A DNA stretch of 64,000 bases from the NCBI RefSeq assembly GCF_044324785.1, contig NZ_CP172127.1; one strand, given 5' to 3'. The notes below the pieces were generated by a model. That model worked only from the letters and a program-made list of their open reading frames with translations, had not been told where the DNA came from and made no database searches. Source of the DNA: Escherichia coli. Its GTDB lineage: Bacteria > Pseudomonadota > Gammaproteobacteria > Enterobacterales > Enterobacteriaceae. How positions within the stretch are numbered: position 1 is the stretch's first letter; each line of letters begins with the position of its first letter. Positions 2,075 to 45,486 of the stretch are shown piece by piece. Both the position numbers and the translations under genes were made by a program.

Positions 2075-3125
2075 CGTGCGGGTATTACTTAGACCTGTTC
2101 TGGTGCCTGAGCTTGGGCTGGTGGTCCTTAAGCCGGGCCGTGAATCCATACAGATATTTCATAATCCTCGAGTGCTGGTGGAACCGGAACCAAAAAGCAT
2201 GCGTAATCTGCCATCCGGAGTCGTTCCTGCCGTTCGCCAGCCGCTGGCGGAAGACAAAACATTGCTGCCGTTTTTTAGTAACGAACGGGTGATTCGTGCT
2301 GCTGGCGGCGTTGGCGCATTGTCCGACTGGCTATTACGTCATGTTACATCCTGCCAGTGGCCTAATGGCGATTACCATCACACTGAAACAGTCATTCACC
2401 GTTATGGTACCGGCGCAATGGTGTTGTGCTGGCACTGCGACAACCAACTGCGTGACCAGACATCGGAATCACTGGAGCTGCTTGCTCAACAAAATCTGAC
2501 AGCATGGGTGATTGACGTCATCCGTCACGCAATAAGCGGTACGCAGGAGCGGGAATTATCTTTGGCTGAATTATCCTGGTGGGCGGTCTGCAATCAGGTG
2601 GTGGATGCACTACCTGAGGCTGTATCGCGTCGTTCGCTGGGATTACCAGCGGAAAAAATCTGCTCGGTGTACCGCGAAAGCGACATCGTACCGGGAGAGC
2701 AGACCGCCACCAGCATATTGAAACAACGCACAAAAAATCTTGCACCGTTGCCTTACGCCCACCAGCAACAAAAATCACCACAGGAAAAGACGGTGGTAAG
2801 CATCACCGTTGATCCAGAGTCTCCGGAATCTTTCATGAAGCTGCCTAAACGTCGCCGCTGGGTTAAGGAGAAATACACACGTTGGGTTAAGACACAGCCG
2901 TGTGCTTGCTGCGGTATGCCAGCCGACGATCCGCATCATCTGATTGGTCACGGGCAGGGCGGAATGGGAACAAAAGCACATGATCTCTTTGTGTTGCCTT
3001 TGTGCAGAAAGCATCACAACGAGCTGCATACGGATACAGTGGCATTTGAAGATAAGTATGGCTCCCAACTGGAGCTGATATTTCGTTTTATCGATCGCGC
3101 GCTGGCAATTGGCGTACTGGCGTAA
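2037..3125 (+). CDS. ydfU: YdfU-family protein (DUF968) with C-terminal HNH-like zinc motif
   Basis: 362-aa ORF; C-terminus CACCGMPADDPHHLIGHG...CRKHHNELH resembles HNH/Zn-finger; exact start uncertain (in-frame GTG ~2073 possible). Confidence 0.75.
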   Translation: MRPALSSNGSGGNVRVLLRPVLVPELGLVVLKPGRESIQIFHNPRVLVEPEPKSMRNLPSGVVPAVRQPLAEDKTLLPFFSNERVIRAAGGVGALSDWLLRHVTSCQWPNGDYHHTETVIHRYGTGAMVLCWHCDNQLRDQTSESLELLAQQNLTAWVIDVIRHAISGTQERELSLAELSWWAVCNQVVDALPEAVSRRSLGLPAEKICSVYRESDIVPGEQTATSILKQRTKNLAPLPYAHQQQKSPQEKTVVSITVDPESPESFMKLPKRRRWVKEKYTRWVKTQPCACCGMPADDPHHLIGHGQGGMGTKAHDLFVLPLCRKHHNELHTDTVAFEDKYGSQLELIFRFIDRALAIGVLA

Positions 3126-4525: not shown

Positions 4526-4825
4526 AAAAATTCCTTAATACTGATAACTTGGCGCACTATACACACGTTCCTGAAGAAAGCTATAGTTTTTTGATGGGGT
4601 TGAAGATGGCTGGATGTCTAAAATAAACATTGCTTCATATGTTCAACTATGCGTTAATGATTGCGTCGGTTTGAAGAACAGACGATATACGAAGTAGTTT
4701 ACTAAAGCAGTTCTCATTTCAGGTGTTATTCACTTATTCCTTCTTTGAGTCTCTCCAATTAAGTACGAAGTCGTTTCTGTTATGCAAACCATTTATGCCG
4801 AAAGGCTCAAGTTAAGGAATGTAGA

Positions 4826-5041
4826 ATGTCAAATAAAATGACTGGTTTAGTAAAATGGTTTAACGCTGATAAAGGTTTCGGCTTTATTTCTCCTGTTGAT
4901 GGTAGTAAAGATGTGTTTGTGCATTTTTCTGCGATTCAGAATGATAATTATCGAACCTTATTTGAAGGTCAAAAGGTTACCTTCTCTATAGAGAGTGGTG
5001 CTAAAGGTCCTGCAGCAGCAAATGTCATCATTACTGATTAA
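4826..5041 (+). CDS. cspB: Cold-shock protein CspA family
   Basis: 71-aa [26 protein letters not shown]...; RNP1/RNP2 motifs; long AT-rich 5' leader. Confidence 0.95.
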
Positions 5042-5322
5042 AATTCATCGCTCGTCTGTATACGATAACGAAGAAGGCTGATGCCTGAGTAGAGATACGG
5101 ACAGAGTAGTGAATATTGGATCTCTTTAATAAAAAGTAAGGAGGTCCAATACATGAAACAATGGCTAGCATATTTGGCAAAATCTTAATCAGGAAAAGTA
5201 TGCTAACCATTGTGGTGAAGTGCAGGTTTGCTGCATGAATAGTTTTACAGCAGAAGCTAACTGCTGGCATGGCAAAACAAAGTGCGTAAGTGGATGACTC
5301 CCACAAAAAGCACCACAATCTC

Positions 5323-7350: not shown

Positions 7351-7713
7351 GGTAATATTAAATCGGAACATTTACATCGCGGAATGTAAAATTTAAATAA
7401 AAAGGACTCTTCCATGAGCCAAAATTCCTGAAATCTTAAGGGTAAGATAAAAGGTCTTAATCAGAATGACACGTTATTATTAATAAATAAAGCTATTCTT
7501 TCATTGCTGTGTTTTTCTTTACAAAAGTAATCCTTGCTATGGGTGGTTAATCATGCGTTAATGGTGTTCTGGTTTGTTACAAATTTATCTGAAGCAGTCA
7601 TTGTTATAATTTTATTATTTGTACCTCTTGAGATTTCCTTGTTGGTTTTTCTCTCTGATATTTTTTTTCGGACCATTCTGCCCAAGGGCTAATTTCTTCA
7701 AAAGGTAATAATT

Positions 7714-7926
7714 ATGTCTAACAAAATGACTGGTTTAGTGAAATGGTTTAACCCTGAAAAAGGTTTTGGTTTCATCACGCCGAAAGATGGCAGCAAAGAT
7801 GTGTTTGTCCATTTCTCAGCAATTCAGAGCAACGATTTCAAAACATTAACTGAGAATCAGGAAGTTGAATTTGGTATTGAGAACGGACCTAAAGGTCCTG
7901 CCGCTGTTCATGTAGTGGCGCTTTGA
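7714..7926 (+). CDS. cspI: Cold-shock protein CspA family
   Basis: 70-aa [26 protein letters not shown]...; long 5' leader. Confidence 0.95.
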
Positions 7927-8014
7927 GGTAGACAATATTACAAACCATATTCACTTTAGATGCCCGTGTTGTCATGGTTCCCAGTATAGAACATCATCTT
8001 TTGATGTTTCTGAC

Positions 8015-32405: not shown

Positions 32406-32980
32406 TGGCATTCAGAATGAGTGAACAACCACGGACCATAAAAATTTATAATCTGCTGGCCGGAACTAATGAATTTATTGGTGAAGGTGACGCATATATT
32501 CCGCCTCATACAGGTCTGCCAGCAAACAGTACCGATATTGCACCACCAGATATTCCTGCTGGCTTTGTGGCTGTTTTCAACAGTGATAAGGCATCGTGGC
32601 ATCTCGTTGAAGACCATCGGGGTAAAACGGTTTATGACGTAGCGTCAGGGGACGCGTTATTTATTTCTGAACTCGGTCCGTTACCGGAAAATGTTACCTG
32701 GTTATCGCCGGAAGGGGAGTTTCAGAAGTGGAACGGCACAGCCTGGGTGAAAGATGCAGAAGCAGAAAAACTGTTCCGGATCCGAGAGGCGGAAGAAACA
32801 AAAAACAGCCTGATGCAGGTAGCCAGTGAGCATATTGCGCCACTTCAGGATGCTGTAGATCTGGAAATCGCAACGGAGGAAGAAACCTCATTGCTGGAAG
32901 CCTGGAAAAAGTATCGGGTGTTGCTGAACCGTGTTGATACGTCAACTGCACAGGATATTGAATGGCCAGCACTGCCGTAG
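32405..32980 (+). CDS. tfa: Tail fiber assembly protein Tfa
   Basis: 191 aa [24 protein letters not shown]...; ATG overlaps stf stop (TAATG). Confidence 0.9.
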
Positions 32981-42967: not shown

Positions 42968-43858
42968 ATGATCAAGAAGACAACGGAAATTGATGCCATC
43001 TTGTTAAATCTCAATAAGGCTATCGATGCCCACTACCAGTGGCTGGTAAGTATGTTTCACAGCGTAGTCGCGAGAGATGCCAGTAAGCCAGAAATAACGG
43101 ATAACCATTCTTATGGACTGTGCCAGTTTGGTCGGTGGATTGATCATCTGGGGCCACTCGATAACGATGAATTACCTTACGTTCGGCTAATGGATTCTGC
43201 CCATCAACATATGCATAACTGTGGTCGGGAATTAATGTTGGCTATTATTGAAAATCACTGGCAGGACGCGCATTTCGACGCCTTTCAGGAAGGGTTGCTT
43301 TCTTTTACTGCGGCATTAACCGATTACAAAATTTATTTGCTGACGATCCGTAGCAATATGGATGTTTTGACGGGATTGCCGGGTCGTCGGGTTCTTGATG
43401 AATCCTTTGATCATCAGTTACGCAACGCTGAGCCTCTGAATCTTTATTTAATGTTGTTGGATATTGACCGATTTAAATTGGTTAATGATACCTACGGGCA
43501 TTTAATCGGCGATGTAGTATTACGCACCCTGGCAACTTACTTAGCCAGTTGGACGCGCGATTACGAAACGGTTTATCGCTACGGTGGCGAAGAATTTATC
43601 ATTATTGTCAAAGCGGCTAATGATGAAGAAGCATGTCGTGCAGGTATCAGAATTTGCCAGTTAGTCGATAACCATGCCATCACACATTCTGAAGGGCATA
43701 TCAACATTACCGTGACTGCAGGTGTGAGTCGCGCATTTCCTGAAGAGCCTCTGGATGTGGTCATTGGAAGAGCGGACCGGGCAATGTATGAGGGTAAGCA
43801 AACCGGAAGAAATCGCTGTATGTTTATTGACGAACAAAATGTGATTAACCGAGTTTAA
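42968..43858 (+). CDS. dgcZ: Zinc-sensing diguanylate cyclase
   Basis: 296 aa; N-terminal chemoreceptor zinc-binding (CZB)-like His/Cys motifs, C-terminal GGDEF domain with GGEEF. Confidence 0.9.
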   Translation: MIKKTTEIDAILLNLNKAIDAHYQWLVSMFHSVVARDASKPEITDNHSYGLCQFGRWIDHLGPLDNDELPYVRLMDSAHQHMHNCGRELMLAIIENHWQDAHFDAFQEGLLSFTAALTDYKIYLLTIRSNMDVLTGLPGRRVLDESFDHQLRNAEPLNLYLMLLDIDRFKLVNDTYGHLIGDVVLRTLATYLASWTRDYETVYRYGGEEFIIIVKAANDEEACRAGIRICQLVDNHAITHSEGHINITVTAGVSRAFPEEPLDVVIGRADRAMYEGKQTGRNRCMFIDEQNVINRV

Positions 43859-43975
43859 GCTCCGTTTAACATTCATTGAGAAAACTGATGCTACTGTGTC
43901 AACGATCCGTTATCAGTGCAGGAAAATGCCTGTTAGCGTAAAAGCAAAACACAAATCTATCCATGCAAGCATTCA

Positions 43976-44001
43976 CCGCCGGTTTACTGGCGGTTTTTTT
44001 T
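43976..44001 (+). terminator. Intrinsic terminator (plus strand) in dgcZ-mgtS intergenic region
   Basis: Hairpin CCGCCGG-TTTA-CTGGCGG followed by T8. Confidence 0.55.
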
Positions 44002-44007
44002 CGCCGT

Positions 44008-44049
44008 CATAAAAATCAGGCCCCTTGTACACAACTGTAACAAGGGGCC
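44008..44049 (-). terminator. Intrinsic terminator for mgtS (minus strand)
   Basis: 10-bp stem GGCCCCTTGT/ACAAGGGGCC followed on the minus strand by TGATTTTTAT. Confidence 0.55.
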
Positions 44050-44076
44050 GGTTAGGTGAGGGATTATCTCCGTTCA

Positions 44077-44172
44077 TTAGTCATCCCATTTGTGGCTGAA
44101 ATACGCGGCCAGAAAACCAGAAAATAAAATTATTCCCAGTACGGCCATAAAAACATTCATATTACCCAGCAT
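44077..44172 (-). CDS. mgtS: MgtS (YneM) 31-aa inner-membrane small protein
   Basis: Hand-translated MLGNMNVFMAVLGIILFSGFLAAYFSHKWDD; SD GGAGG upstream; below track cutoff. Confidence 0.8.
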   Translation of the reverse strand: MLGNMNVFMAVLGIILFSGFLAAYFSHKWDD

Positions 44173-44298
44173 TATTTGCCTCCGTTTATGGTGTGGTGTG
44201 TTTCCTCGCTTACCTTAATTTTCATCTCAATGAGAAAGATATTAGCAGAGGTAACCTAAACGAAGGCTGAATTAAATTTTTATTGTGTTCGACTTAAA

Positions 44299-45486
44299 TC
44301 AACAAAGCGCGGGCTGCCCCCACGGTCTTGCACGAATTCCTTTTAACATCAGCACCCACGCAGCAATGATCACCAACGCTAAGATGATAAACAGCGAGGA
44401 AGGCGGCAGGTTGGTTAGCACTATGCCACTCACTAATGGGTTAATCGCCGCACCAAGCCAGCCTAAAGACTGAGCGGAAAAATAGCTGGCTTTCATTCCT
44501 GGCGGCGCAATATGGTCAATCAACATATACTCGCCCGGCGCATAAATGATTTCACCGACAGTAAATACCGCAGCTGACATACCCCACAATAGCAGGCTGT
44601 TGCCGGAAAAAATAAAACCGACCAGACCGATGACGAAACAGAGGGTGCCTGCTGTCATCAGCGTGCGGATGTTAGCCGGGTTAAGTCGCCGGCCCACGGA
44701 ATATTGCAACGTAACCACCATGGCAGCATTCACCGGAAGAACAACCGCGACCACCTTTTCGGCAAAATCCCCATCAGCAATCACCATCACATATTGTGAA
44801 ATGCATGAAGCAAATGCGCCGCTAACAAAAGAAGCCAGAAAGCCAGAGCAGGTAAACCACAACAGTGCTTTATCTTGTAATAAAACTTTCGGCGACCAGG
44901 CACTGGCTGTTTCCGTGGCGATGATTTTCTCGCTGCGCTTTACCCAAATTTGAATGAAAAGCATGGGAAACGCGGAACAGATAGCTGCCAGCCAAAAGGG
45001 CAGATTGATGCTCTGCATCACCAACAGCGTGCCGAGCGGCGGACCGATGGTCCAGCCAATGTTTAGCATGGTGTAGTTGATTGAGAAGATTTTCGTTTTG
45101 CTGGTGGAGGAAAGATTGTCGGCAAACCAGGCTTTCAACACGGTAGCAAAAACGGAATAGGCGCAGTTAATAAGGGCAAAAAAGAGTACCACCAGCGTCA
45201 CGTTATTCACTAAAGGAATGGCAATAAAACCGCTGGCGAAGGCGGTAATTGCCAGTAACATATAGCGTTTCTTGTCGAACTTATCCGCCAGGATACCAAA
45301 ACCGAGGCTAAAAACGACGCCAATAGTGAGCGCAATTGTCATCGCATAACCGATTAGATCGACACTCAGGCTGTACTGGCGACTCAAGTAAATGGTCATA
45401 AACGGCAGCGTAGCGCCGCGTCCGATGGTTAATAACAACGACGAGGCAAGAAGGGCGCTGGTAGAGCGTCGTAGGGATAAGTTCAT
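44299..45486 (-). CDS. ydeE: MFS efflux transporter
   Basis: 395 aa, 12-TM profile. Confidence 0.9.
   Translation of the reverse strand: MNLSLRRSTSALLASSLLLTIGRGATLPFMTIYLSRQYSLSVDLIGYAMTIALTIGVVFSLGFGILADKFDKKRYMLLAITAFASGFIAIPLVNNVTLVVLFFALINCAYSVFATVLKAWFADNLSSTSKTKIFSINYTMLNIGWTIGPPLGTLLVMQSINLPFWLAAICSAFPMLFIQIWVKRSEKIIATETASAWSPKVLLQDKALLWFTCSGFLASFVSGAFASCISQYVMVIADGDFAEKVVAVVLPVNAAMVVTLQYSVGRRLNPANIRTLMTAGTLCFVIGLVGFIFSGNSLLLWGMSAAVFTVGEIIYAPGEYMLIDHIAPPGMKASYFSAQSLGWLGAAINPLVSGIVLTNLPPSSLFIILALVIIAAWVLMLKGIRARPWGQPALC

What the first reader, a model, noticed from the sequence alone, without database searches (positions are those of the whole stretch)
43859..44298. Compact small-protein / possible sRNA locus: mgtS with convergent terminators
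A 31-aa ORF matching the MgtS (YneM) sequence as I recall it is on the minus strand with a good SD and its own terminator. A plus-strand terminator lies just upstream of that hairpin. The PhoP-regulated sRNA MgrR is reported to be encoded next to mgtS, but I cannot place its boundaries or strand from sequence alone. It could be the ~100 nt ending at the plus-strand terminator (~43,900-44,001) or lie on the other side of mgtS. This is why I did not list MgrR as a feature.
Basis: partly seen in the sequence, partly recalled or inferred. Interest (0 to 1): 0.35.

Follow-up and report, generated by a model that had tools for sequence, protein, structure and literature searches.

The report
Known E. 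coli mgrR–mgtS–mgtT locus
This stretch is the well-studied E. coli low-magnesium response locus, where the small RNA MgrR and the small-protein genes mgtS and mgtT face each other, so it is ordinary and already described.

Summary
Window 43859-44298 is the dgcZ-ydeE intergenic region of E. coli. It is 99% identical to K-12 MG1655 and present in 5416 of 5426 complete E. coli genomes.

- **MgrR:** this 98-nt sRNA (b4698) lies at 43904-44001 on the plus strand and ends at the plus-strand terminator. It differs from K-12 at one unpaired base (43907). Rfam RF01407 (STnc560) scores 281.9 bits against a gathering score of 55.
- **mgtS:** the gene lies at 44172..44077 on the minus strand and its product is identical to K-12 MgtS. 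NCBIfam gives 80.6 bits against a cut-off of 35. Across 29 enterobacterial sequences, variable sites by codon position are 12/7/29.
- **mgtT:** It starts on the mgtS stop codon, runs through the mgtS terminator and overlaps the MgrR 3' end antisense by 29 nt.
- **Promoters:** both carry a conserved PhoP-box-like direct repeat 12 nt upstream of a TGn-extended -10.

One small new point: the mgtT frame shows no protein-level conservation outside Escherichia. The locus is already known and of low interest.

The parts
42968..43858 (+). dgcZ (ydeH), the left flanking gene, encoding a 296-aa diguanylate cyclase. Its last codon and stop overlap an upstream PhoP-like half-site.
   Evidence: ORF. NCBIfam NF007380 520 bits against a cut-off of 256. 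RefSeq annotation.
43852..43857 (+). AGTTTA, an extra upstream PhoP-like half-site. Together with CGTTTA it gives the best raw consensus match, AGTTTAagctcCGTTTA, with 2 mismatches. It is only partly conserved.
   Evidence: match at 43852-43868. Alignment A2 (consensus TAGTTnCG, not invariant).
43863..43879 (+). Conserved PhoP-box-like direct repeat of the mgrR promoter, CGTTTA-acatt-CATTGA. It ends 12 nt upstream of the -10 hexamer.
   Evidence: In alignment A2 of 35 sequences, GTTTA (43864-68) is invariant or nearly so, and TTG (43876-78) is at least 90% conserved. PhoQP dependence of mgrR comes from the literature.
43889..43897 (+). Extended -10 of mgrR, TGcTACTGT. There is no -35 hexamer.
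   Evidence: G43890, T43892, A43893 and T43897 are invariant in 35 sequences. The sigma-70 scan that requires a -35 found nothing here, as expected for an activator-dependent promoter.
43904..44001 (+). mgrR, encoding the 98-nt Hfq-dependent sRNA MgrR (b4698; Salmonella STnc560).
   Evidence: The RefSeq ncRNA feature NC_000913.3 1622817-1622914 maps here through alignment A1, with 97 of 98 bases identical and one difference at 43907. Rfam RF01407 281.9 bits.
43908..43938 (+). MgrR 5' stem-loop (nt 5-35).
   Evidence: MFE fold of -25.9 kcal/mol, z = -2.9. Four of its five outer pairs show compensatory changes in 35 sequences. Structure probing is reported in PMC6239178.
43939..43957 (+). Single-stranded A-rich (ARN)n stretch, the binding site for the Hfq distal face. 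The boundaries are approximate.
   Evidence: Sequence GUAAAAGCAAAACACAAAUC. Unpaired in the fold. Described as an (ARN)5 motif in PMC6239178.
43958..43971 (+). MgrR seed, UAUCCAUGCAAGCA (U55-A68), which pairs with eptB, ygdQ and other mRNAs.
   Evidence: PMC6239178 gives U55-A68 as the pairing region. Invariant in all 35 sequences, but these were retrieved with a 20-mer that overlaps the seed, so the invariance is partly by construction.
43975..44001 (+). MgrR Rho-independent terminator: an 8-bp stem at 43975-43994 followed by a U tail that ends at 44001.
   Evidence: Terminator scan. Fold. Compensatory G-C to A-U change at the innermost pair in 13 sequences.
44011..44049 (-). mgtS intrinsic terminator: a 13-bp bulged hairpin at 44049..44019, followed by UGAUUUUUAU.
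   Evidence: Folds. A hairpin with a U-rich tail is present after mgtS in all 29 related sequences, with compensatory changes, for example in Kosakonia cowanii and Phytobacter. It also forms a paired element in the Rfam model.
43973..44077 (-). mgtT (b4775), a 34-aa ORF. Its ATG overlaps the mgtS stop (TAATG). It runs through the mgtS terminator and is antisense to the last 29 nt of mgrR.
   Evidence: ORF. RefSeq CDS features. Detected by ribosome profiling and tagging (bioRxiv 10.1101/511675). PhoQP-dependent, in an operon with mgtS, not membrane-localised, and without a deletion or overexpression phenotype (PMC11429745). No NCBIfam family. No protein-level conservation.
44077..44172 (-). mgtS (yneM, b4599), encoding a 31-aa inner-membrane protein.
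   Evidence: ORF. NCBIfam NF033842 80.6 bits against a cut-off of 35, covering 31/31. No nucleotide difference from K-12. Variable sites by codon position 12/7/29, and 224 synonymous against 65 non-synonymous codon differences.
44179..44183 (-). Shine-Dalgarno sequence GGAGG of mgtS, 6 nt upstream of the ATG.
   Evidence: Sequence. A purine-rich SD is present in all related sequences.
44204..44216 (-). Conserved mgtS 5'-UTR block AAGGUAAGcGAGG, of unknown role.
   Evidence: GAGG is invariant and AGGTAAG is 70-90% conserved in 29 sequences.
44239..44247 (-). mgtS -10 region, tGcTAATAT. The transcription start lies near 44230.
   Evidence: Conservation. A 58-nt mgtS 5' UTR is stated in bioRxiv 10.1101/2021.06.30.450655, which places the start at about 44230.
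44257..44273 (-). PhoP-box-like direct repeat of the mgtS promoter, AATTCA-gcctt-CGTTTA. It ends 12 nt upstream of the -10 hexamer.
   Evidence: TT.A and G.T.A positions are invariant across 29 sequences. It has 4 mismatches to the consensus, so the 3-mismatch scan did not list it. PhoQ-dependent reporter activity is reported in PMC11429745.
44299..45486 (-). ydeE, the right flanking gene, encoding a 395-aa MFS exporter. It is co-directional with mgtS and lies upstream of it.
   Evidence: ORF. NCBIfam NF007472 798 bits against a cut-off of 582. Annotation.

Best explanation
The region is the E. coli PhoQ/PhoP-controlled mgrR / mgtS-mgtT locus. It holds two convergent transcription units, each driven by a -35-less promoter. 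In each promoter a PhoP-box-like direct repeat sits 12 nt upstream of a TGn-extended -10. Low Mg2+ leads to phosphorylation of PhoP, which switches both units on.

The plus-strand unit makes MgrR, 98 nt long (43904-44001). It consists of a 5' stem-loop, an A-rich Hfq distal-face site, a 14-nt seed and a Rho-independent terminator with a U8 tail. With Hfq, the seed pairs with the eptB, ygdQ and, according to the title of Yin et al., pitA mRNAs and represses them.

The minus-strand unit starts near 44230 and mostly ends at the hairpin and U-tract at 44049..44011. It encodes MgtS, a 31-aa membrane protein that raises MgtA Mg2+-importer levels and modulates PitA. Transcripts that read through the terminator would also encode the 34-aa MgtT, whose function is unknown.

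Shown here: sequence identity to the annotated genes, family membership, RNA structure with covariation, coding selection on mgtS, and conservation and geometry of the promoter elements. Taken from the literature: PhoQP dependence, Hfq dependence, the targets, the MgtS-MgtA link and MgtT expression. Inferred: that the conserved repeats are the actual PhoP-binding sites, and that full-length MgtT requires terminator read-through.
For: - Identity to the annotated locus: the RefSeq K-12 annotation lists mgtS, mgtT, mgrR and dgcZ in this order and orientation. The window is 99% identical over 520 nt, with 3 substitutions and no indels. The locus is present in 5416 of 5426 complete E. coli genomes.
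- Family membership: Rfam RF01407 281.9 bits. NCBIfam small_MgtS 80.6 bits.
- MgrR structure: the fold has z = -2.9 and 5 of 12 pairs show compensatory changes.
- mgtS coding selection: codon-position variability 12/7/29, with 224 synonymous against 65 non-synonymous differences.
- mgtS terminator: conserved in 29 of 29 sequences.
- Promoter elements: invariant across genera, with identical spacing in both promoters.
[quoted passage not shown] MgtT was detected by ribosome profiling and tagging. In Salmonella, STnc560 is about 90 nt and 29-fold enriched with Hfq, and the yneM transcript is about 190 nt.
Against: Nothing contradicts this reading, but four caveats apply.

- No expression data exist for this particular strain.
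- The PhoP consensus is not specific on its own. There were 176 matches at up to 3 mismatches in the window against 136 expected by chance, and the mgtS box has 4 mismatches.
- The primary papers that define the MgrR 5' end and the PhoP boxes (Moon and Gottesman 2009) and the MgtS mechanism (Wang 2017; Yin 2019) could not be read. Those points rest on the RefSeq coordinates and on secondary citations.
- The comparative set was retrieved with an exact 20-mer from MgrR, so conservation of the seed region is partly circular.
Confidence: 0.95

Rival explanations
1. MgrR lies on the other side of mgtS, in the ydeE-mgtS spacer (44173-44298), or on the minus strand.
For: The spacer is non-coding.
Against: The RefSeq mgrR coordinates map to 43904-44001 on the plus strand. 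The only Rfam hit in the region is on the plus strand at 43870-44083. The spacer holds the conserved mgtS promoter and 5' UTR. It contains no terminator on either strand apart from the one at the ydeE 3' end.
Confidence: 0.01
2. The functional RNA is the 214-nt element defined by the Rfam STnc560 model (43870-44083). That would be a longer sRNA spanning both hairpins rather than the 98-nt MgrR.
For: The Rfam model matches end to end over positions 1-214, with conserved columns beyond 44001.
Against: The first 34 model positions are the mgrR promoter, covering the proximal PhoP half-site and the -10. The positions after 44001 are the antisense of the mgtS terminator and of the sequence just downstream of the mgtS stop codon, and their conservation is explained by the minus-strand gene. 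A U8 terminator ends the RNA at 44001. Sittka 2008 reports a band of about 90 nt for STnc560, with coordinates given only as the whole intergenic region. K-12 MgrR is 98 nt.
Confidence: 0.03
3. In addition to their separate trans functions, the two units regulate each other in cis. mgtS-mgtT transcripts that read through the mgtS terminator are antisense to the MgrR 3' end. Translation starting at the mgtT ATG could unwind the terminator hairpin and so tune that read-through.
For: mgtT runs through the hairpin and ends 38 nt past the U-tract, overlapping mgrR by 29 nt. Full-length tagged MgtT has been detected, which implies some read-through. An ATG overlapping the mgtS stop is present in 29 of 29 sequences, while the downstream peptide is unconstrained (8-60 aa; variable sites 5/6/7; 37 synonymous against 56 non-synonymous differences). 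This pattern fits a role for the act of translation better than a role for the product. The E. coli U-tract is separated from the stem by UGA.
Against: The conserved ATG is equally well explained by a tandem in-frame stop, T(A/G)A-TGA, of mgtS. In 5 taxa the ORF stops after 8 codons, before the hairpin, and in 8 taxa it stops in the loop, so translation through the terminator is not conserved. Deletion and overexpression of mgtT gave no phenotype. No read-through or antisense data were available.
Confidence: 0.08

Closest known systems
MgrR sRNA of E. coli K-12 (b4698), which is Salmonella STnc560 and Rfam RF01407
   Same: It has the same position between dgcZ and mgtS, the same strand relation and the same 98-nt length. 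97 of 98 bases are identical. The 5' stem-loop, A-rich Hfq site, seed and U8 terminator are all the same.
   Different: One substitution at nt 4 (window 43907, C where K-12 has T), in an unpaired position that is also variable in the Rfam consensus.
MgtS (YneM) small membrane protein, NCBIfam NF033842
   Same: The 31-aa sequence and its nucleotide sequence are identical to K-12. The SD, the terminator and the convergent arrangement with mgrR are the same.
   Different: None detected.
MgtT (b4775), a small protein found by ribosome profiling with stalled initiation complexes (Weaver et al., bioRxiv 10.1101/511675)
   Same: Identical 34-aa ORF with the same out-of-frame TAATG overlap with mgtS.
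   Different: None in sequence. The comparative analysis here adds that the frame is not conserved in length or peptide outside Escherichia.
PhoP-activated promoters with a PhoP box in place of the -35 (consensus (T/G)GTTTA-N5-(T/G)GTTTA)
   Same: Both promoters have a direct repeat with 5-nt spacing at the -35 position, no -35 hexamer, and one good GTTTA half-site each. Both genes are reported to be PhoQP-dependent.
   Different: Each box has one degenerate half-site: CATTGA in mgrR and AATTCA in mgtS. The good half-site is distal in mgrR and proximal in mgtS. mgrR has an additional half-site 11 nt further upstream, overlapping the dgcZ stop codon.

Membership tests
MgrR / STnc560 (Rfam RF01407) | Covariance-model score above the Rfam gathering threshold | tested here: met
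   281.9 bits against 55, E = 1.8e-64, full-length match to model positions 1-214.
MgrR / STnc560 (Rfam RF01407) | Sequence and position equivalent to the annotated K-12 mgrR gene (98 nt, between dgcZ and mgtS, convergent with mgtS) | tested here: met
   The NC_000913.3 ncRNA feature 1622817-1622914 aligns to window 43904-44001 with 97 of 98 bases identical.
MgrR / STnc560 (Rfam RF01407) | Architecture of a Class II Hfq sRNA: 5' stem-loop, single-stranded ARN-rich stretch, seed U55-A68, and a Rho-independent terminator with a U tail | tested here: met
   Fold. Covariation. The description in PMC6239178 matches.
MgrR / STnc560 (Rfam RF01407) | PhoQ/PhoP-dependent induction in low Mg2+ | not testable with these tools
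   Only the conserved PhoP-box-like repeat and extended -10 could be shown. Induction is taken from the literature.
MgrR / STnc560 (Rfam RF01407) | Hfq binding and repression of eptB and ygdQ | not testable with these tools
   Literature only. The seed sequence is identical to K-12.
MgtS (NCBIfam NF033842, equivalog) | HMM score above the curated cut-off over the full 31-aa length | tested here: met
   80.6 bits against 35, covering 1-31 of 31.
MgtS (NCBIfam NF033842, equivalog) | A real coding gene: ribosome-binding site and purifying selection on the peptide | tested here: met
   GGAGG lies 6 nt upstream of the ATG. Variable sites by codon position are 12/7/29, with 224 synonymous against 65 non-synonymous differences in 29 sequences.
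MgtS (NCBIfam NF033842, equivalog) | Membrane localisation and stabilisation of MgtA | not testable with these tools
   Literature. A hydrophobic core, VFMAVLGIILFSGFLAAYF, is visible in the sequence.
MgtT (b4775) | A 34-aa ORF whose ATG overlaps the mgtS stop codon, identical to the K-12 annotation | tested here: met
   ORF at 43973..44077 on the minus strand. RefSeq CDS. No substitutions in this stretch.
MgtT (b4775) | Conserved protein family (peptide under selection) | tested here: not met
   No NCBIfam model matches. ORF length ranges from 8 to 60 aa in 29 taxa. Variable sites are 5/6/7 of 7 per codon position, with 37 synonymous against 56 non-synonymous differences.
PhoP-box promoter | (T/G)GTTTA-N5-(T/G)GTTTA with at most 2-3 mismatches at or near -35 | tested here: inconclusive
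   For mgrR, the match at 43852-43868 has 2 mismatches, but lies 11 nt upstream of the usual place. The conserved box at 43863-43879 has 4 mismatches. The mgtS box at 44273..44257 also has 4 mismatches. The consensus is not specific in this window, with 176 matches found against 136 expected. Conservation across genera and identical spacing to the -10 support function. PhoP binding itself was not tested.

The most novel reading that the evidence does not exclude
The mgtT reading frame may matter for the act of its translation rather than for its product. An initiation codon fused to the mgtS stop is present in all 29 enterobacterial sequences examined, while the peptide is unconstrained. In Escherichia, ribosomes entering this frame would run into the mgtS terminator hairpin. 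That could promote read-through transcription antisense to the MgrR 3' end and so couple the two PhoP outputs in cis.
Probability: 0.07. Interest if true: 0.4.

Novelty: already known. Interest (0 to 1): 0.08.

Why it matters
For the genome scan, the result is that this finding can be closed.

The locus matters biologically. MgrR alters LPS modification, and so sensitivity to antimicrobial peptides. MgtS raises intracellular Mg2+ through MgtA and PitA. All of this is published.

The only increment here is comparative. mgtS is under strong coding selection, whereas mgtT is not a conserved protein. Both promoters share one architecture, a PhoP-like repeat 12 nt upstream of a TGn-extended -10.

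Tried and rejected
- **Papers not held:** Moon and Gottesman 2009 (PubMed 19889087, PMC2841474), Wang 2017 (PMC5465934) and Yin 2019 (PMC6351178) could not be read. The published 5' end, PhoP-box assignment and MgtS mechanism are therefore cited second-hand, from the RefSeq coordinates and.
- **Failed look-ups:** a paper look-up with a term that was too short failed. A search for papers naming both STnc560 and MgrR found none. The equivalence rests on the Rfam hit covering mgrR and on the ydeI/ydeE location and ~90-nt size given by Sittka 2008.
- **PhoP consensus scan:** the scan of the whole window is not discriminating (176 matches against 136 expected). I rejected it as stand-alone evidence and used cross-genus conservation instead.
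- **Sigma-70 scan:** it found neither promoter. This is expected because both lack a -35, so it does not count against them.
- **Terminator scan:** it missed the mgtS terminator because of a bulged stem. Folding and comparison recovered it.
- **Whole mgtS-mgtT transcript fold:** z = -1.5, not significant. The predicted pairing between the 5' and 3' ends was not pursued.
- **Longer Rfam element:** I considered that the 214-nt Rfam model marks a longer sRNA and rejected this (see the rival explanations).
- **Conserved mgtT ATG:** I considered that it proves a conserved gene and rejected this. It coincides with a tandem stop, T(A/G)A-TGA, in the mgtS frame, and the peptide shows no constraint.

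Full report
**What is in the sequence**

Window 43859-44298 is exactly the non-coding space between two ORFs. One is a plus-strand 296-aa ORF at 42968-43858. The other is a minus-strand 395-aa ORF at 45486..44299. NCBIfam identifies them as the diguanylate cyclase DgcZ (520 bits against a cut-off of 256) and the MFS exporter YdeE (798 bits against a cut-off of 582).

A GGAGG sits 6 nt upstream of its ATG. The ORF matches the NCBIfam equivalog small_MgtS over its whole length, at 80.6 bits against a cut-off of 35.

A plus-strand terminator was found by the scan: an 8-bp stem at 43975-43994 followed by a T run that ends at 44001. The minus-strand hairpin after mgtS is a 13-bp bulged stem at 44049..44019, followed by UGAUUUUUAU. 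The scan missed it only because of the bulge.

The two terminators point at each other and are about 10 nt apart.

**Identity of the locus**

A megablast of 43700-44450 finds the region in 5416 of 5426 complete E. coli genomes at 95-100% identity. The annotated features under the match are dgcZ, mgtT, mgtS and ydeE.

In K-12 MG1655 (NC_000913.3) the annotation lists, in this order:
- ydeE
- mgtS (b4599, 1622646-1622741)
- mgtT (b4775, 1622741-1622845)
- the ncRNA mgrR (b4698, 1622817-1622914, opposite strand)
- dgcZ

Aligned to the reverse complement of that stretch, the window has 3 substitutions and no indels over 520 nt. K-12 coordinates therefore convert exactly, as window = 1666818 minus the K-12 coordinate. 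This places the genes as follows:
- mgrR at 43904-44001 on the plus strand
- mgtS at 44172..44077 on the minus strand
- mgtT at 44077..43973 on the minus strand

The only difference inside mgrR is at 43907 (nt 4), where the window has C and K-12 has T.

The alternative on the far side of mgtS is not.

**MgrR**

Rfam RF01407 (STnc560, an Hfq-binding RNA) matches 43870-44083 on the plus strand at 281.9 bits, against a gathering score of 55.

The model is longer than the sRNA. Its first 34 positions are the mgrR promoter. Its last 80 or so are the antisense of the mgtS terminator and of the sequence just downstream of the mgtS stop codon. The reason is historical. Sittka et al. 2008 listed STnc560 only by the coordinates of the whole ydeI/ydeE intergenic region, with a band of about 90 nt and 29-fold enrichment with Hfq. 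They listed the yneM transcript (STnc570) at about 190 nt.

The 98-nt RNA folds into three parts (-25.9 kcal/mol, z = -2.9, and none of 200 shuffles folded as well):
- a 5' stem-loop at 43908-43938
- an unpaired middle
- a terminator at 43975-43994 followed by a U tail

This matches the probed structure described in PMC6239178: two terminal stem-loops, a central (ARN)5-like A-rich stretch, a pairing region U55-A68 (window 43958-43971, UAUCCAUGCAAGCA) and a U8 tail.

In 35 sequences from Escherichia, Salmonella, Citrobacter, Kosakonia, Phytobacter, Pluralibacter, Lelliottia and others, 5 of 12 consensus pairs show compensatory changes. These sequences were retrieved with a 20-mer from the seed region, so invariance of the seed is partly built in.

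**mgtS**

Across 29 sequences that carry mgtS next to mgrR there are 24 distinct coding sequences but only 14 distinct proteins. Variable sites by codon position are 12, 7 and 29 of 31. Codon differences from the window are 224 synonymous against 65 non-synonymous.

Every one of the 29 sequences has a strong hairpin with a U-rich tail after mgtS, with compensatory changes in the stem, for example in Kosakonia cowanii and Phytobacter.

The ORF at 44077..43973 on the minus strand (34 aa, MNGDNPSPNRPLVTVVYKGPDFYDGEKKPPVNRR) is annotated as mgtT in RefSeq.

What the literature reports:
- It was discovered by ribosome profiling with stalled initiation complexes and confirmed by tagging (bioRxiv 10.1101/511675).
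- It is described as PhoQP-dependent, in an operon with mgtS, not membrane-localised, and without a deletion or overexpression phenotype (PMC11429745).

What the sequence shows:
- Its ATG overlaps the mgtS stop (TAATG).
- The frame runs through the mgtS terminator hairpin.
- Its stop codon at 43975..43973 lies 38 nt beyond the U-tract and 29 nt inside mgrR on the opposite strand.

A transcript terminated at about 44011 would therefore carry mgtT without a stop codon. I infer that full-length MgtT requires terminator read-through.

The comparative picture is as follows. An ATG fused to the mgtS stop is present in 29 of 29 sequences. However, the ORF is 8 aa long in 5 taxa, 14 aa (ending in the hairpin loop) in 8 taxa, and 24-60 aa in the rest. 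Codons 2-8 show no third-position bias, with 5/6/7 variable sites of 7 and 37 synonymous against 56 non-synonymous differences.

The conserved ATG is also what a tandem in-frame stop, T(A/G)A-TGA, in the mgtS frame would produce. The apparent RPL...KGP conservation is simply the two G+C-rich arms of the hairpin. On this evidence mgtT is not a conserved protein outside Escherichia.

**Promoters**

The PhoP consensus (T/G)GTTTA-N5-(T/G)GTTTA is not specific by itself. At up to 3 mismatches it matches 176 times in the window, against 136 expected by chance. The best local match is AGTTTAagctcCGTTTA at 43852-43868 (2 mismatches), and its first half-site overlaps the dgcZ stop codon.

Conservation tells a sharper story. 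In the 35-sequence alignment the invariant or nearly invariant upstream positions are:
- GTTTA at 43864-68
- TTG at 43876-78
- the G of TG at 43889-90 (43890)
- TA at 43892-93
- T at 43897

This gives CGTTTA-acatt-CATTGA, then 9 nt, then TGcTACTGT, with the annotated 5' end 6 nt after the -10.

The mgtS promoter has the same layout on the minus strand: AATTCA-gcctt-CGTTTA at 44273..44257, then 9 nt, then tGcTAATAT, with the -10 at 44244..44239. A 58-nt 5' UTR is reported for mgtS, which puts its start near 44230.

In both promoters the repeat ends 12 nt upstream of the -10 and no -35 hexamer is present. This is consistent with activator-dependent promoters, and with the statement that PhoP boxes sit at the -35 region of PhoP-activated E. 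coli genes. That these repeats are the PhoP-binding sites is an inference. PhoQP dependence of both genes comes from the literature.

**Mechanism**

This part rests on the literature and is applied here by sequence identity. Low Mg2+ activates PhoQ/PhoP, which turns on both convergent units.

MgrR, bound by Hfq through its A-rich stretch and U tail, pairs through its seed with eptB and ygdQ mRNAs and represses them. The title of Yin et al. also names PitA as modulated by MgrR and MgtS. MgtS is an inner-membrane protein required for accumulation of the Mg2+ importer MgtA.

**Verdict**

The locus is already known in full, and interest is low.

The most novel reading not excluded is that translation initiating at the mgtT ATG modulates read-through of the mgtS terminator into mgrR antisense. 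The evidence is thin, and an equally good trivial explanation exists in the tandem stop codon.

Noticed in passing
window 44056-44076 (minus strand), just downstream of the mgtS stop codon: The block TGAACGGAGATAATCCC directly after the mgtS stop is conserved at the nucleotide level across genera, and the mgtS frame carries a tandem stop T(A/G)A-TGA in 29 of 29 sequences. Neither the mgtT peptide, which is unconstrained, nor the terminator, which starts further downstream, explains this conservation.
   Followed up: partly
window 44204-44216 (minus strand), mgtS 5' UTR: The element AAGGUAAGnGAGG lies about 32-44 nt upstream of the mgtS start codon and is separate from the SD. Its GAGG is invariant in 29 sequences. 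Its role is unknown.
   Followed up: no
L012 (Enterobacteriaceae bacterium RIT691, WJYM01000006.1), matches at 1440-1459 and 3034-3053: There are two mgrR copies about 1.6 kb apart. The copy with the canonical PhoP-box and extended -10 promoter is not next to mgtS. The copy next to mgtS has a divergent upstream region.
   Followed up: no
L022 (Citrobacter amalonaticus), L034 (Lelliottia sp.), L037 (Huaxiibacter chinensis): The MgrR core is present, but no mgtS ORF lies within about 380 nt downstream. The mgrR-mgtS linkage is therefore not universal.
   Followed up: no
L005 (Caldithrix sp. MAG, SMXE01000224.1) and L024 (Chryseobacterium sp. 18061, CACSKA010000003.1): Both contigs carry enterobacterial mgrR-mgtS loci. 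L005 encodes MgtS and MgtT peptides identical to those of E. coli, and L024 is close to Citrobacter sp. 18056 from the same project. These look like contaminating or mis-binned contigs.
   Followed up: no
window 43870-44083 (Rfam RF01407 match): The Rfam STnc560 model is 214 nt long. It includes 34 nt of mgrR promoter, which it models as a hairpin, and the antisense of the mgtS terminator and of the sequence after the mgtS stop codon. Annotating the full hit as the sRNA would overstate MgrR by 116 nt.
   Followed up: yes
window 32748-32946 (+): Rfam IS009 hit at 226.7 bits against a gathering score of 117. By offset from the homologous strain's annotation, this falls in the adjoining Qin-like prophage region (tail genes, tfaQ, pinQ, ydfK).
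   Followed up: no
window 4665-5057 (+) and 7568-7953 (+): Two matches to the Rfam cspA thermoregulator, at 158.8 and 112.8 bits against a gathering score of 78. They are presumably 5' UTRs of prophage-borne cold-shock genes.
   Followed up: no
window 44308-44324 (minus strand): A terminator-like hairpin, CGTGGGGGCAGCCCGCG followed by CTTTGTTGAT, lies inside the last codons of ydeE. Its T-rich tail runs across the ydeE stop, just upstream of the mgtS promoter.
   Followed up: no
window 44009-44018 compared with related loci: In Escherichia the mgtS terminator stem is separated from the U run by UGA (UGAUUUUUAU). Most Citrobacter sequences have AUUUUUUU directly after the stem. The long mgtT frame that crosses the terminator and reaches mgrR with a fixed length of 30-34 aa is found in Escherichia. 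A possible link between a weaker terminator and the mgtT ORF was not tested.
   Followed up: no
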